Sequence record: MW314854.1
Length of the DNA stretch: 54,877 nucleotides
Direction: 5' to 3' (one strand)
Source of the DNA: Mycobacterium phage phiGD24-3
Shown here: positions 1 through 54,877 of the stretch, piece after piece
How the letters are laid out: every line of letters starts with the position of its first letter
Position numbering within the stretch: the stretch's first letter is position 1
The notes under the pieces: generated by a model
Databases searched by the model: none
Told to the model about the DNA's origin: nothing
The model's input: the letters and a program-made list of their open reading frames with translations, nothing else
Made by a program: the position numbers and the translations under genes

Positions 1-340
1 TCCGGAGGAGCCATCGTGTACGGGTTTAGAAGTCGAACACCCATTCGGGTGGTATGTAAACCCCCAGGTCGATCATAAAACGGTAGTGAAATAGGTAACA
101 ATTCAGTAACGGAGGCCCATTTACGGCACAGGGTGCGGGTATTTAACCTATGAGAGGGTAAGAGAAGAAAATCTTCTCTTTATATAGGACGAGGCGAAGC
201 CGAGTCCCCGGCTTCTTCTCGTCGGTTCGGCCTTCGGCCTCACGGTATACCAACGTAATGTAGTTACCTAACGTAACGGAATTACGGTTGGTGGGCCGTG
301 ACCGGCCCCTAAAGGCCGGGTCGCGGACCCGGAGTCCGAA

Positions 341-47912: not shown

Positions 47913-48416
47913 CTAGGGTTCGCGTGGCGGAAATTTCCATATCTGTTCTCCGTATTCAGTTATGTGAGTGTGTTCGTTCACGCGAATCATCAGACCCTTA
48001 TCACGCGGCTCTCTCGGCCTGTAAGCAAACCCTCCTGGCTTGCATACCCCTGGGTCAGACGGGATTTCCGGGTCGTACTCAACAACCAGGTTCTCGTCCC
48101 TAAGTTTCTTGTAGAACGACCGTAACTTGCTGCGTCGACGTTCGGTAAAACGGTCGCTGCCTTGCATCATGTGCTCGGCGTGGTCTCGCAGCAGCGCTAG
48201 TGGCTGTGCCCGGTTGAATTTCTCCGGCACCGCGAACGGAAGAGCCTCGGCCACACGCTGCCGTATGGCGGGCGTTCCGTCGTACTTCCTCCATAGGTAC
48301 GAAACTGCCTGGCGGGTGACCCCGAACATCTCCGCAATTTGGCTGTGGTTGTACCCTTCATTTTTCAGTTGTCGAATGATCCCTATGGTCAAACCGGATG
48401 CATATGTTTCGTCCAT
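47913..48416 (-). CDS. immunity repressor (L5 gp71-like, HTH)
   Basis: HTH 'SQIAEMFGVTRQAVSYLW'; 'LRDHAEHM' and 'IRVNEHTHIT' match the recalled L5 gp71 pattern. Confidence 0.85.
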   Translation of the reverse strand: MDETYASGLTIGIIRQLKNEGYNHSQIAEMFGVTRQAVSYLWRKYDGTPAIRQRVAEALPFAVPEKFNRAQPLALLRDHAEHMMQGSDRFTERRRSKLRSFYKKLRDENLVVEYDPEIPSDPGVCKPGGFAYRPREPRDKGLMIRVNEHTHITEYGEQIWKFPPREP

Positions 48417-51085: not shown

Positions 51086-51172
51086 TGGTGCCCCCGGCGC
51101 GAATCGAACGCGCCACACACAGCGACTCCGGGAGTTCATACGCCTCCGGGGGAGCGTGTAACCGTTGGGGGC
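51086..51172 (-). ncRNA. tRNA-like element: perfect T-arm (GCGCG-TTCGATT-CGCGC), GC acceptor helix, encoded CCA; non-canonical 5' half
   Basis: minus strand reads ...GGCGCGTTCGATTCGCGCCGGGGGCACCA; 5' GCCCCCA pairs with 3' CGGGGGC. Confidence 0.4.
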
Positions 51173-51295
51173 GGTCTGGTTTCGACATGAGCGATAGCTC
51201 ATGCCTTTTATCGTGGGTGGTTAGAGTTGTGGCTCAAACCAAATCCAAAGCCAGCCGTCATCACCGTCGTCGTCCCGCTCCCTCATAGTCCTAGT

Positions 51296-51430
51296 TCACG
51301 CTCCTGTCAGCTGGTCTACGTAGCAGCCGGAAGGGCAACGCCCGCAGCACATGTTGTAAGCCCAGTCAGCATCTACGGCGCGGAGTCGGGCTTTCTGTTC
51401 TTCGGATAGGGGTTCAATGCGGTAACTCAT
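51296..51430 (-). CDS. small Cys-rich protein (44 aa)
   Basis: ATGA coupling. Confidence 0.35.
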   Translation of the reverse strand: MSYRIEPLSEEQKARLRAVDADWAYNMCCGRCPSGCYVDQLTGA

Positions 51431-51639
51431 CGCCACCACCTCGCAGGCTTCGCCCACATGATCGATAAGTACGGATGTCCCGGCTGGTTATCGTGGGGCA
51501 GTCGGATTGCGACTCCGATGACTTGTCGCGGGTACCGGTTCAGGACAACAAGCCGGGGGCGTTCGGCTGCATGGCATTTCACAGCCCGGAACTGGATTGG
51601 CCAACCAAACGGCGGCACGAATCGTCTTTGGTCGCTCAT
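51427..51639 (-). CDS. hypothetical protein
   Basis: ORF. Confidence 0.45.
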   Translation of the reverse strand: MSDQRRFVPPFGWPIQFRAVKCHAAERPRLVVLNRYPRQVIGVAIRLPHDNQPGHPYLSIMWAKPARWWR

Positions 51640-52952: not shown

Positions 52953-53117
52953 TCAGCCGGGTATGGAGGCCAAGCTGGCGGACGCGTCGTGGAGGTACTC
53001 CGGGTCGTTGGCGATCTTCCCCATCGCGTACACCTCGGCCAAGTCTTCCGACCGCATGTCGTCTAGCGACCAACCCAAGTCTTTGATGGCCTGGTCGACC
53101 TCTGCCATTGCGCTCAT
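52953..53117 (-). CDS. hypothetical small protein (54 aa)
   Basis: RBS AGGAGA downstream of a stoperator. Confidence 0.5.
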   Translation of the reverse strand: MSAMAEVDQAIKDLGWSLDDMRSEDLAEVYAMGKIANDPEYLHDASASLASIPG

Positions 53118-53138
53118 ATCTTCTCCTAAGTCGGTTCG

Positions 53139-53152
53139 GGTCGTATGTCAAG
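53139..53152 (-). promoter_or_regulatory. stoperator site GGTCGTATGTCAAG
   Basis: exact 14-mer. Confidence 0.75.
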
Positions 53153-53198
53153 TACTTGGGTAAATAAAAAGGTCTATTAGTTGGTATGTAGTAGTGGA

Positions 53199-53369
53199 TT
53201 AGTAGGGTAGGTCGGTCAAATCGTCTGAGTAGTGTTCGGCATAGTTGACCTCGTGTCCGACAAGTGCGGCTGCGTGCTCGGCGGCTTCGCATTCACTGTC
53301 TGCGATGACGTAGATGTCTTCATCTCCGGTGTCTACGACATACACGGCGCTCTGCCCGCAGGTACCCAT
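53199..53369 (-). CDS. hypothetical small acidic protein
   Basis: ATGA coupling. Confidence 0.45.
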   Translation of the reverse strand: MGTCGQSAVYVVDTGDEDIYVIADSECEAAEHAAALVGHEVNYAEHYSDDLTDLPY

Positions 53370-53746
53370 CAGAACACCACGCCGCCCGTGAAAGCCTTGC
53401 AAATTCCCAGCTCGTCGTGGTCACGCAGAAGCAGCTCAAGTGTCTCTGCCATCTCCCTAGGGACATAGCGCAGCTCTGATCCGATGCGGACCTCGATCAA
53501 GTCTGCACGCCGTTCTGCCGCAAAGCGGCGCTCCTCTTCCGCTTGGTGGCAACTCACCTGAAAGTCACCCTCTACGAATTGGTGGCGTGGGATGGCTACT
53601 TGATTGCCGTACTGGTTGCTGATCGCCACGGCGTTATGACGATTGACCCGTAATACCCGGAAGGTCTCACCGCTGTGTGTATTACGCACGGTGTCACCGG
53701 CAGCGACGACTTGGTCAACGCCTTTACCCGCCCAGTAATCATTCAT
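53369..53746 (-). CDS. hypothetical protein (125 aa)
   Basis: first sizeable ORF downstream of the right-end promoters. Confidence 0.6.
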   Translation of the reverse strand: MNDYWAGKGVDQVVAAGDTVRNTHSGETFRVLRVNRHNAVAISNQYGNQVAIPRHQFVEGDFQVSCHQAEEERRFAAERRADLIEVRIGSELRYVPREMAETLELLLRDHDELGICKAFTGGVVF

Positions 53747-54174
53747 CTATCTAGTCCTTATCGGTAGTAGCTCAAATCTTCTAGTGCCACGTTTGGAGTC
53801 GAACCAAACCCCTACGGTCATATCGAGAGGGCGAACCTGCCGTGGCCGACCACCAGGCACACGCTGTATCTCAAGCGCAAGCCAAATGGCCTTAAAGTAT
53901 GTTCACGTCCGTATGTTTTCCTCGGCCCGTTTCCGTGGGTTAGACCGGTCACTGAAGGCTGACTAAACGCCACTCCCTCGCAGTCCGGTAGGTCTTGGCG
54001 ATGCCCGTCATCGCTCGCTACCGGAGATATCTTCTACGTACGCTATGTGTTATGACTTGGGGGGTATCACCAGGCTCGCTGGTTGACCATGCTCCGTGTC
54101 ACTTGTTATTCAGTTGTAGGCGCTTGAGGCATAGCCTCTGCGCTTTGCGTCGAGAACTATGTTCTCTAGCGATC

Positions 54175-54204
54175 AAACTATCAGATTGTGGGCCGTATGT
54201 CAAG
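54175..54204 (-). promoter_or_regulatory. candidate promoter: -35 TTGACA inside operator GGCCGTATGTCAAG (54191-54204), 17 bp, -10 TAGTTT
   Basis: read on the minus strand. Confidence 0.45.
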
Positions 54205-54290
54205 CCGTGTTGCTTGGCTCTATGCGCTCGCTCACCCGCTGGCGTATGGGTTTACTTGACGTTGTATGCCCGTTCTGAAGTTGTATCTGT

Positions 54291-54320
54291 ACTCTAACTC
54301 ATTGCCGGTCGTATGTCAAG
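54291..54320 (-). promoter_or_regulatory. candidate early promoter (Pleft-like): -35 TTGACA inside operator GGTCGTATGTCAAG (54307-54320), 17 bp, -10 TAGAGT
   Basis: read on the minus strand. Confidence 0.5.
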
Positions 54321-54415
54321 TCGCAATTTGAGCGGTTGTACGGCCCTGTGCGGTATCGGGGTTACCGACATACCGCCACACCGTTGACGGGCCGTCTGTG
54401 CTCGCACAGGGACAC

Positions 54416-54443
54416 AAAAAAGGCCCTCCCCGAAGGGAGGGCC
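54416..54443 (-). terminator. intrinsic terminator for leftward transcription (GGCCCTCCC-cgaa-GGGAGGGCC + TTTTTT on minus strand)
   Basis: perfect 9-bp stem + U-tract. Confidence 0.75.
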
Positions 54444-54457
54444 GTTGGCGGTGGGGG

Positions 54458-54667
54458 TTATCGGTAGTTCTCCGATGTCACGTAGTACACCGCGCCTGTG
54501 TCGGGGTCGGTCCAGTTGCACGGTTTCCCGTCCGTATTCCCGTCCTCGTATTGGCATACGGGCAATTGGTCTGCGTGTGCTGTTGCTTCTACCGCAGTGG
54601 GCAGTCCTACCCAGAACGCACCAACGGTGAGTGTAGCGAGGGCCAGTTGCTTCCATGTGTTTGACAT
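54458..54667 (-). CDS. small secreted protein (69 aa; signal peptide, 2 Cys), probably leaderless
   Basis: 'MSNTWKQLALATLTVGAFWVGLPTAVEATAHA'; ATG at the predicted +1 of the promoter at 54674-54702. Confidence 0.55.
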   Translation of the reverse strand: MSNTWKQLALATLTVGAFWVGLPTAVEATAHADQLPVCQYEDGNTDGKPCNWTDPDTGAVYYVTSENYR

Positions 54668-54673
54668 ACGACC
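54660..54673 (+). promoter_or_regulatory. inverted operator-like site tTTGACATACGACC (13/14) overlapping the start codon of the 69-aa gene
   Basis: reverse orientation relative to 54689-54702, forming a dyad. Confidence 0.6.
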
Positions 54674-54702
54674 ACTCTACTACGCACGGGCCGTATGTCA
54701 AG
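54674..54702 (-). promoter_or_regulatory. candidate promoter: -35 TTGACA inside operator GGCCGTATGTCAAG (54689-54702), 16 bp, -10 TAGAGT; +1 = A of ATG at 54667
   Basis: read on the minus strand. Confidence 0.5.
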
Positions 54703-54877
54703 TGGTGCGTGCATACGAATGTGGACACCACGCACACACGCATGCACATACATAAGCGTGGGTGGGTAGCACGGTGCACACCACCGTGCACGGGCACGGC
54801 TCGGTCGGCAGCGCAGCTGCCCCACCCGGCACCCCAGGGGGGACACCCCTCCCCCGGCCCCCAGGATCGGGCGGTAA

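What the first reader, a model, noticed from the sequence alone, without database searches (positions are those of the whole stretch)
53747..54320. Two tandem operator-embedded promoters followed by a ~450-bp ORF-poor leader containing a tRNA-like T-arm fragment
The sites at 54307-54320 and 54191-54204 each provide a TTGACA -35 exactly 17 bp upstream of a TANNNT hexamer (TAGAGT, TAGTTT). Downstream (53747-54190) there is no convincing ORF on either strand. The stretch does contain a perfect T-arm motif (minus strand TTTGG-TTCGACT-CCAAA, plus coordinates 53792-53808) and a GGTTCGCC motif. This could be the Pleft-equivalent with a long structured 5' UTR, or a small RNA.
Basis: partly seen in the sequence, partly recalled or inferred. 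Interest (0 to 1): 0.55.

Follow-up and report, generated by a model that had tools for sequence, protein, structure and literature searches.

The report
Phage early promoters plus tRNA-like RNA
This is the repressor-controlled early promoter region of a Cluster A-type Mycobacterium abscessus prophage, and its roughly 500-nt non-coding leader ends in a compact, evolutionarily conserved tRNA-like RNA module that probably corresponds to the unexplained, abundant, essential early RNA of phages L5 and D29.

Summary
Two TTGACA-17-TANNNT promoters sit inside 14-bp repressor sites. A leader with no coding signal follows, and the T-arm is at 53792-53808 (minus strand).

The window is a MabJ/Cluster A-type M. 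abscessus phage. It has its own L5-type repressor and 11 exact copies of the stoperator core. The locus matches the L5/D29 Pleft region, where a ~500-nt abundant, stable, toxic non-coding RNA has been shown experimentally.

The "T-arm fragment" is not a fragment. It belongs to a 61-nt cloverleaf at 53786-53846 (-). The parts are a 6-bp acceptor stem, a GC-AGGUUC-GC mini-hairpin, a 7-bp arm with a 7-nt loop, and a 5-bp T arm.

- **Membership:** a covariance model built only from six M. smegmatis phages finds it as the single strong hit in the window (37.5 bits; next best 12.5).
- **Covariation:** 14 of 20 pairs show compensatory changes.
- **Longer version:** a ~75-108-nt version sits at the same place in L5, D29 and their relatives. 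It coincides with the 3' edge of the published RNA peak and with the part that could not be deleted.

I infer processing and stabilisation by tRNA-maturation enzymes; this was not shown. The locus is a known kind. The tRNA-like module seems undescribed.

The parts
54307..54320 (-). Operator/stoperator site 1, which embeds the -35 (TTGACA, 54319-54314) of promoter P1
   Evidence: An exact copy of the 11-mer core CGTATGTCAAG. The consensus scan finds TTGACA-17-TAGAGT. Conserved in all 8 MabJ sequences.
54291..54296 (-). P1 -10 hexamer TAGAGT. The start site is inferred at about 54284.
   Evidence: TANNNT is kept through substitutions in relatives. The start site is inferred, not mapped.
54205..54290 (-). 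Conserved 5' leader module between P1 and P2
   Evidence: Nearly invariant in all MabJ relatives, including those whose middle leader is unrelated. A 56-nt insertion is tolerated at one point. Function unknown.
54191..54204 (-). Operator/stoperator site 2, which embeds the -35 (TTGACA, 54203-54198) of promoter P2
   Evidence: Exact core copy. Spacer of 17 bp.
54175..54180 (-). P2 -10 hexamer TAGTTT (weaker). The start site is inferred at about 54168.
   Evidence: Identical in all relatives. Not called by the TATAAT-based scan.
53847..54174 (-). Variable, non-coding middle of the leader (one of two alleles)
   Evidence: Replaced by unrelated sequence of similar length in prophiT49-3 and in contigs L070-L073. 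No coding signal. No terminator.
53786..53846 (-). Compact tRNA-like module. The acceptor-like stem pairs 53846-53841 with 53791-53786. The mini-hairpin GC-AGGUUC-GC is 53840-53831. Arm II is 53830-53809, with the 7-nt loop AUAUGAC and one bulged U. The T arm is 53808-53792, with loop UUCGACU.
   Evidence: CM R2, built without any MabJ sequence: 37.5 bits, E about 8e-8, all 20 pairs standard, next best hit in the window 12.5 bits. CM R1, long class: top hit in the window at 18.8 bits. Covariation: 96.4% of cells paired against 68% in shuffles, and 14 of 20 pairs with double changes. Mosaic junctions lie exactly at both ends. The isolated module folds into this cloverleaf.
53781..53785 (-). 3' tail ACUAG (discriminator-like A, then CUA)
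   Evidence: The tail is ACUA in most of the M. smegmatis phage elements examined and ACCA in three (BobSwaget, Kalpine, LittleCherry).
53744..53759 (-). Ribosome-binding site AAGGA (53759-53755) and ATG (53746-53744) of the first early ORF. The whole ORF is 53369-53746, 125 aa.
   Evidence: Annotated as gene 57 in prophiGD43A-4.

Best explanation
The region is the early lytic (Pleft-type) control region of a temperate Cluster A/MabJ mycobacteriophage.

Shown here or by homology:
- Two sigma-A-type promoters each have their -35 inside a 14-bp asymmetric binding site for the phage's L5-type repressor, so both are shut off in the lysogen.
- They would transcribe leftward through about 420-540 nt that encode no protein.
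- That leader ends 39 nt before the first early ORF in a 61-nt tRNA-like cloverleaf. The cloverleaf is conserved by structure, with compensatory changes, in many Cluster A phages.
- In L5 and D29 the homologous module lies at the 3' edge of the hyper-abundant, stable, essential early RNA.

Inferred, not shown:
- The module's acceptor stem and T arm could stack into an 11-bp helix, the feature tRNA-maturation enzymes recognise. RNase P would cut at its 5' side. Its 3' end would be trimmed, and CCA possibly added.
- Cleavage and protection at this module would then set the 3' end of the leader RNA and release or stabilise a small tRNA-like RNA.
- This would also separate the RNA from the downstream early mRNA, and would explain why the RNA accumulates so strongly.
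For: Phage identity: the nearest relatives are MabJ prophages, at 95-99% identity, described as Cluster A-like (PMC8092301; PMC9934374). The repressor gene is 47913-48416 (-), phrog_357, E = 2e-61. The stoperator core occurs 11 times exactly against about 1 expected.

Promoters. They are conserved in relatives. Peaches (A4) has the same layout: two TTGACA-17-TAG(A/C)GT sites, a ~430-nt leader, the element, then a stoperator and a gene.

Non-coding.

tRNA-like module: for the compact class; for the long class. G-U pairs on this strand would be A-C mismatches on the other strand.

Link to the known RNA:
- The L5 element is 51,135-51,226.
- The published 3'-end zone is 51,140-51,190.
- The left edge of probe A is 51,133.
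- The deletion 51,195-51,407 could not be constructed and would remove the element's 5' third. The deletion 51,407-51,619 is viable (PMC5712189).
- The D29 element is 47,977-48,084. This matches the 'sharp peak immediately upstream of gene 89' (bioRxiv 10.1101/2025.11.21.689395).

Precedent in the host genus: the tRNA-like module of M. smegmatis YrlA is cut by RNase P and receives CCA in vivo (PMC4201824).
Against: There are no transcript data for this phage, so start sites, RNA ends and abundance are all inferred.

The published L5 work interprets the 3' end as about 90% termination, and the smaller RNAs as sharing the Pleft 5' end. That does not obviously include a free ~100-nt 3' product.

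The acceptor stem has 6 bp rather than 7. The stack is 11 bp rather than 12. The tail is ACUA rather than ACCA. There are no linker nucleotides. Recognition by RNase P, RNase Z or the CCA-adding enzyme is therefore plausible but unproven.

The module alone is not thermodynamically exceptional (z = -0.2 to -0.7).

The alignments hold 10-11 related sequences and the structure was derived from them. The CM E-values are rough.
Confidence: 0.65

Rival explanations
1. The leader is a purely cis-acting 5' UTR. In this reading the tRNA-like fold is an attenuator or a stability and translation element that tunes how much transcription or translation reaches the early genes. No RNA product has a job of its own.
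For: In L5 about 90% of transcripts end just before gene 89, and gene 89 is poorly expressed (PMC5712189). The module always lies immediately upstream of the first early ORF, 39-130 nt away. In several phages a hairpin and a stoperator follow it.
Against: There is no intrinsic terminator in or after the window's module. The T-loop, the acceptor-like stem and the ACUA/ACCA tail are features for tRNA enzymes, not for terminators. In L5 the RNA accumulates above the capsid mRNA and is toxic when expressed from a plasmid, which suggests a product with activity. This rival is compatible with the processing model rather than exclusive of it.
Confidence: 0.2
2. The module is a trans-acting tRNA mimic. 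It would act as a decoy or inhibitor for a host tRNA-binding factor, such as a tRNA-targeting toxin or defence nuclease, RNase P, an aminoacyl-tRNA synthetase, EF-Tu or SmpB. That activity would be why the RNA is essential and toxic.
For: The structure is conserved across distant Cluster A subclusters while the sequence drifts. The loops are invariant (GCAGGUUCGC, ACAUCAC, UUCGA), which suggests contacts with a partner. The L5 RNA is toxic and that part of the locus is essential. A second tRNA-like element with an encoded ACCA end lies at 51086-51172 in the same early operon.
Against: No partner is known and nothing here tests binding. The 7-nt loop lacks U33 in most members, so decoding is unlikely. 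G3-U70 is seen in only one member, Adzzy.
Confidence: 0.12
3. The T-arm is a dead relic, either a tRNA pseudogene or an old attachment-site core, with no present function.
For: ARAGORN and Rfam call no tRNA here. Phage attP cores often carry tRNA 3' halves. The D29 attP T-arm was picked up as a control.
Against: All three variable helices show compensatory changes. The position is the same in every phage examined, and related sequence is found in 154 + 214 phage records. Mosaic junctions respect the module's ends. MabJ phages use serine integrases with 5-8-bp cores inside protein genes, not tRNA sites (PMC8092301).
Confidence: 0.02
4. An unannotated small protein gene lies in the gap. The candidates are the 100-aa plus-strand ORF 53995-54297 and the ORF through the module that prophiBWHA-1 annotates as gene 54.
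For: ORFs of 34-100 aa exist. One relative's annotation overlaps the module.
Against: There are no family hits. GC3 is 0.45-0.62, against a genome minimum of 0.60 and a mean of 0.69. The ORFs are not conserved between the two leader alleles or across the junctions. The authors of the L5 work likewise found no conserved ORF.
Confidence: 0.02

Closest known systems
Pleft non-coding RNA locus of Cluster A mycobacteriophages L5, D29 and StarStuff (Dedrick et al. 2017, PMC5712189)
   Same: A repressor-operated early promoter near the right cos end, with further stoperator/promoter-like sites in the leader. About 500 nt of non-coding sequence lie before the first leftward gene. A homologous tRNA-like module sits at the 3' end (CM hits).
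   Different: The sequence is unrelated outside the module. The window's module is the compact 61-nt form, shared with A4, Benedictvirus and some A1 phages, not the ~75-108-nt L5/D29 form. MabJ phages carry an extra small gene with its own promoter and terminator between cos and P1. Expression, stability and toxicity are untested here. In the papers I could search, the published work does not describe a tRNA-like structure.
tRNA-like module of bacterial Y RNA YrlA, especially in M. smegmatis (Chen et al. 2014, PMC4201824)
   Same: A non-coding RNA that carries an acceptor-like stem and a T arm. In the same host genus this module is cut by RNase P and receives CCA, which was proposed to protect the RNA from exonucleases.
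   Different: There is no Ro60/Rsr-binding stem and no Rfam match. The YrlA-bearing phages are the Ro60-encoding ones such as ET08, not Cluster A. The internal arms differ.
MALAT1/MEN-beta mascRNA (a tRNA-like 3' module that sets the end of a long non-coding RNA)
   Same: A tRNA-like fold at the 3' end of an abundant non-coding transcript. RNase P cleavage defines the upstream RNA's 3' end and releases a small tRNA-like RNA. This is the only Rfam family that touched the element.
   Different: It is eukaryotic. The Rfam score is 17.3 bits against a gathering score of 42.5 (E = 3.2), so this is an analogy and not membership.
tRNA-like domain of tmRNA and viral 3' tRNA-like structures (from my own knowledge)
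   Same: The topology is acceptor stem, then a short GG-containing segment in the D-loop position (GCAGGUUCGC), then one helix, then the T arm.
   Different: ARAGORN finds no tmRNA and there is no tag reading frame. The resemblance of the D-loop analogue is recalled from memory and was not tested.

Membership tests
Cluster A mycobacteriophage Pleft / early non-coding RNA locus | The genome encodes an L5-type immunity repressor and many asymmetric 13-14-bp stoperator sites oriented with transcription | tested here: met
   The repressor is 47913-48416 (-), phrog_357, E = 2e-61. There are 11 exact and 2 one-mismatch copies of the core. Ten of the eleven right-arm copies share one orientation, and one left-arm copy has the opposite orientation. 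The consensus equals the published MabJ consensus.
Cluster A mycobacteriophage Pleft / early non-coding RNA locus | A sigma-A-type promoter whose -35 overlaps an operator, near the right genome end, reading leftward | tested here: met
   P1 and P2 lie 558 and 674 bp from the right end. The same pair is seen in Peaches. Start sites are not mapped.
Cluster A mycobacteriophage Pleft / early non-coding RNA locus | About 500 bp with no conserved ORF between the promoter and the first early gene | tested here: met
Cluster A mycobacteriophage Pleft / early non-coding RNA locus | Homology of the RNA itself to the L5/D29-type locus | tested here: met
   This holds only for the 3' module. R1 gives 18.8 bits, the top hit in the window. 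R2 gives 37.5 bits. The rest of the leader has no detectable similarity.
Cluster A mycobacteriophage Pleft / early non-coding RNA locus | The RNA is very abundant, stable, processed, and toxic when expressed | not testable with these tools
   This needs RNA-seq, northern blots or expression experiments. GEO series GSE161710 (strain GD43A, which carries prophiGD43A-4) could be mapped.
Canonical tRNA gene | Detected by tRNA finders; 7-bp acceptor stem, D arm, anticodon arm with U33, variable loop, T arm | tested here: not met
   ARAGORN finds three real tRNAs elsewhere and none here. No Rfam tRNA hit at E <= 10. The acceptor has 6 bp, there are no linker nucleotides, the D position holds only a 2-3-bp mini-hairpin, and most members lack U33. 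Only the T arm is canonical.
tmRNA | A tRNA-like domain plus a tag reading frame and pseudoknots; detected by ARAGORN or Rfam | tested here: not met
   The element is 61 nt long.
YrlA / bacterial Y RNA | A Ro60-binding stem plus a tRNA-like domain; an Rfam match | tested here: not met
   No Rfam hit at E <= 10 in the window region, or at E <= 5 in L5 and MabJ loci. The ends of the element form the acceptor stem directly, with no extra Ro-binding helix. I did not check whether the window has a Ro60 gene.
mascRNA-menRNA (Rfam RF01684) | Reaches the Rfam gathering score | tested here: not met
   17.3 bits against 42.5.
Intrinsic terminator / attenuator | A GC-rich hairpin followed by a U tract between the promoter and the gene | tested here: not met
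   The only terminator-like site is at 54443-54422, upstream of P1.

The most novel reading that the evidence does not exclude
The conserved module may be a new family of phage tRNA mimics, absent from Rfam. After RNase P cleavage, and perhaps CCA addition, it would act in trans on a host tRNA-handling factor early in infection. The target could be a defence nuclease or toxin, RNase P, a synthetase, EF-Tu or SmpB. That activity would be the long-unexplained essential and toxic function of the Pleft RNA in Cluster A mycobacteriophages. The second ACCA-ended element at 51086-51172 would then point to a wider use of tRNA-like modules in these early operons.
Probability: 0.15. Interest if true: 0.85.

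Novelty: new variant of a known kind. Interest (0 to 1): 0.6.

Why it matters
Cluster A is the largest group of mycobacteriophages. It includes L5, D29 and Bxb1, and engineered relatives are used for diagnostics and therapy against M. tuberculosis and M. abscessus.

Since 2017 the most abundant early transcript of these phages has been known to be non-coding, stable, toxic and partly essential, with no structure or mechanism attached.

Placing a covarying tRNA-like module at the 3' edge of that RNA peak, overlapping the segment that could not be deleted, gives concrete experiments: RNase P cleavage, CCA addition, compensatory stem mutants, and expression of the module alone.

It also gives annotators a model for a feature that is currently left blank or mis-called as a CDS in hundreds of genomes.

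For this window specifically, it shows that the M. abscessus MabJ prophages share the feature, so it applies in a clinically relevant host.

Tried and rejected
1. Whole-leader folding gave z = -0.68 on the sense strand and -0.16 on the antisense strand, so there is no global structure signal.
2. An Rfam scan of 53000-54877 at E <= 10 gave only sub-threshold chance-level hits. An ARAGORN scan of the whole window found no tRNA or tmRNA in the region.
3. An outer pairing GUGCC/GGCAC with a GGUGGUCGGCCAC hairpin would make a 77-nt five-way fold in the window. I rejected it because the T49-3-type allele lacks those bases while keeping the 61-nt core.
4. I searched for more MabJ-type relatives in one genome per species. 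The protein-guided scan with the 125-aa neighbour found nothing. The DNA pattern GGCAGGTTCGC...TTCGA...ACTA gave 49 hits, none of them in Mycobacterium.
5. The viral contigs pattern for the L5-type T arm and acceptor returned mostly genuine tRNA-Tyr genes of uncultivated phages, not homologues.
6. YrlA was considered. The phage YrlAs belong to Ro60-encoding phages and there is no model match.
7. I tested whether the D29 candidate small RNA reported for the 63-64 intergenic region is another such element. The CM found only the Pleft-proximal element in the D29 right arm, plus the attP T arm as a control.
8. Bxb1 (A1) gave no convincing hit with either model, so the element is not shown to be universal in Cluster A.
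9. Coding potential of the leader ORFs was rejected.

Full report
**1. What the window is.**
The rightmost 1.2 kb matches only four records, at 95-99% identity. All four are M. abscessus prophages: prophiBWHA-1, prophiGD43A-4, prophiT46-3 and prophiT49-3. The literature places these in cluster MabJ, organised like Cluster A mycobacteriophages, with a repressor far from the integrase and stoperator sites of consensus cTTgACATACGaCC (PMC8092301; PMC9934374).

The window fits that description. The 11-mer CGTATGTCAAG occurs 11 times exactly, against about 1 expected. ORF 47913-48416 (-) is a full-length match to the phage repressor family phrog_357, E = 2e-61. In prophage records the window's end runs straight on into its start, so the window is a genome in virion (cos) orientation. 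The finding therefore lies at the right end, where Cluster A phages keep their early lytic promoter Pleft.

**2. Checking the observation.**
On the minus strand, P1 is TTGACA (54319-54314), 17 bp, TAGAGT (54296-54291). P2 is TTGACA (54203-54198), 17 bp, TAGTTT (54180-54175). The -35 is part of the repressor site itself, so every stoperator offers a TTGACA. What separates a promoter from a plain stoperator is the -10.

Of the 13 sites in the genome, only the three rightmost have TANNNT at 16-19 bp. Across eight MabJ sequences the P1 -10 changes (TAGAGT, TAGATT, TAGTGT, TACCTT) but remains TANNNT. P2 is invariant.

The gap has no coding signal. There are no Pfam or PHROG hits for any ORF on either strand. 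The codon-position GC pattern of this genome's genes is absent. The middle 330 nt is swapped for unrelated sequence in sister phages. The T-arm and GGTTCGCC coordinates are exact. The leader as a whole does not fold better than shuffled sequence.

**3. Anatomy from comparison within MabJ.**
I aligned the window with the four prophages and with five further M. abscessus contigs fetched through the neighbouring 69-aa protein. The alignment shows three parts.
- A conserved 5' module runs from P1 through P2.
- The middle comes in two unrelated alleles.
- A conserved 3' block starts at (G/U)CACGGCAGG and ends at GUGGCAC.

Three different sequences are joined immediately after GUGGCAC, and two different ones immediately before the block. 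Recombination therefore treats 53846-53784 as a unit.

Four positions vary inside it. Three lie in stems or at the stem edge, and all keep pairing: C-G to U-G in the acceptor stem, and U-G to U-A in arm II. The fourth is in a loop.

**4. The block is a tRNA-like cloverleaf shared with M. smegmatis phages.**
I read the L5 right end and found a 92-nt element just upstream of gene 89. It has an acceptor stem GGGUAG/CUACCC, a T arm UCGGG-UUCGAUU-CCCGA, and the tail ACUA.

All 17 other sampled Cluster A genomes carry it at the same place. An 11-sequence MAFFT alignment gives a four-way junction. In it, 98.9% of cells are paired, against 84% in shuffles and 36-51% when partners are slid. Twelve of 25 pairs show compensatory double changes.

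A covariance model of this long class (R1) recovers four phages that were not in its seed, at 27-40 bits. In the whole window, with filters off, it ranks 53782-53846 (-) first at 18.8 bits. That is above the three genuine tRNA genes.

Peaches (A4) has a 62-nt version that closely resembles the window's. The single-stranded motifs GCAGGUUCGC, the loop ACAUCAC (identical in prophiBWHA-1) and the tail ACUAG are the same. All three helices have different sequences.

With Stink, Scorpia, Jovo, LittleCherry and SkiPole, plus four MabJ variants, an unfitted MAFFT alignment supports the structure.
- 96.4% of cells are paired, against 68% in shuffles and 37-42% when partners are slid.
- 14 of 20 pairs show double changes.
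- The G-U pairs would be mismatches on the other strand.

A model built only from the six M. smegmatis phage sequences (R2) hits the window at 53781-53846 (-) with 37.5 bits, E about 8e-8. All pairs are standard and the next best hit scores 12.5 bits. It also finds the other MabJ alleles at 29-46 bits.

The E-values are rough and the sequences are related, so these are not independent events. Even so, three helices exchanged wholesale between MabJ, A4, Benedictvirus and A1 phages is strong evidence for a real RNA structure.

**5. Link to what is known experimentally.**
In L5, D29 and StarStuff, the ~500 bp between Pleft and gene 89 gives the most abundant phage transcript. It is stable, processed to species of 100-500 nt, and toxic in M. 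smegmatis and E. coli. The authors found no conserved ORF (PMC5712189).
- Their 3'-end zone (51,140-51,190) and the left end of their probe A (51,133) fall on the element I place at 51,135-51,226.
- The deletion they could not make (51,195-51,407) removes the element's acceptor 5' strand and first arm.
- The viable deletion (51,407-51,619) leaves the element intact.
- A 2025 preprint on D29 reports a sharp peak immediately upstream of gene 89 and equates it with the essential leftmost RNA peak. The D29 element is at 47,977-48,084, and gene 89 starts at 47,930.

No paper in the searchable library combines 'tRNA-like' with Pleft or with Cluster A phages. No Rfam family matches. The structural description therefore appears to be new, with the caveat that subscription-only papers were not searched.

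**6. How it most likely works.**
Shown: the phage has a repressor and operator-type sites, two promoter-like sites, a non-coding leader, and a conserved tRNA-like fold at the leader's 3' end.

Inferred from homology: early, strong, repressor-controlled transcription, and accumulation of a stable RNA.

Inferred from the fold: the acceptor stem and T arm form an 11-bp stack with a canonical T loop and an A-C-U/C-A tail. That is the kind of minihelix that RNase P, 3'-end trimming enzymes and the CCA-adding enzyme recognise. In M. smegmatis such a module in YrlA is cut by RNase P and receives CCA (PMC4201824). Processing and protection at the module would explain the apparent 90% 'termination' without a terminator, since none is found here. 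They would also explain the stability of the RNA.

Whether the module also acts in trans, for example as a decoy, is open. Its invariant loops and the toxicity make this worth testing.

**7. Rivals.**
- A purely cis-acting attenuator is compatible with much of the evidence, but it does not explain the tRNA-enzyme features or the toxicity.
- A dead tRNA or attP relic is excluded by the covariation, and by the serine-integrase biology of MabJ.
- A hidden protein gene is excluded and by non-conservation.

**8. Verdict.**
As a locus it is a new member of a known kind, the Cluster A Pleft non-coding RNA region. The added value is that the 'T-arm fragment' turns out to be a complete, covarying tRNA-like module. 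It defines the conserved core of that long-puzzling RNA, and it does not belong to the tRNA, tmRNA, YrlA or mascRNA families.

Noticed in passing
window 51086-51172 (-): A second tRNA-like element lies in an unannotated ~245-nt intergenic gap of the early operon: GCCCCC ... GGCGCG-UUCGAUU-CGCGCC GGGGGC ACCA. It has a 6-bp acceptor stem, a 6-bp T arm and an encoded ACCA end. R1 scores it 12 bits and its fold z is -2.1. prophiT49-3 keeps the same acceptor stem, T arm and ACCA but has a different, longer central arm. In prophiBWHA-1 an HNH endonuclease gene (gene 48) interrupts the element at the T arm.
   Followed up: partly
window 54458-54702 (-): A third operator-promoter (TTGACA 54701-54696, 16 bp, TAGAGT 54679-54674) sits 6 nt upstream of the ATG at 54667 of a 69-aa ORF with a hydrophobic N-terminus (phrog_12613). 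This implies a leaderless mRNA. The ATG lies inside an inverted copy of the stoperator (54660-54670, + strand). A strong intrinsic terminator at 54443-54422 insulates this gene from P1.
   Followed up: partly
L001 3804-4079 (prophiBWHA-1 gene 54); L015 623-1030 (EagleEye gene 97); also the CDSs listed under hits H55, H62 and H74: Annotated hypothetical-protein CDSs overlap the tRNA-like module. The reading frames are not conserved across the mosaic junctions, so these are probably mis-called starts or false genes.
   Followed up: partly
window 288-308 (-); the same site in L069-L073, L002 and L003: A short GC-rich hairpin GGGCCGGUC...CGGCCC followed by ACCA lies near the left genome end. It is picked up by both covariance models at about 10-11.5 bits and is conserved in all MabJ loci. 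Its significance is unknown and the score is at chance level.
   Followed up: no
L005-L020 (Cluster A loci), just 3' of the long-class element; window 53771-53777: The motif UGAGCU recurs. It appears inside the long-class element (CUGAGCUAUGG) and in the hairpin CCUGAGCUUUGAUCUCAGG that follows the element and precedes a stoperator. It also appears as UUUGAGCUAC after the window's module. In GS4E and Echild a second GGGUAGC copy lies about 50 nt upstream of the element.
   Followed up: no
window 47913-48416 (-): This is the phage's immunity repressor, 167 aa, with an N-terminal helix-turn-helix (phrog_357, E = 2e-61).
   Followed up: yes
L074 (Bxb1 right end): Neither covariance model finds a convincing tRNA-like element in the last 2.7 kb of Bxb1 (A1). 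SkiPole (also A1) has one about 2.8 kb from its right end. The element may therefore be missing, moved or too diverged in some subclusters.
   Followed up: partly
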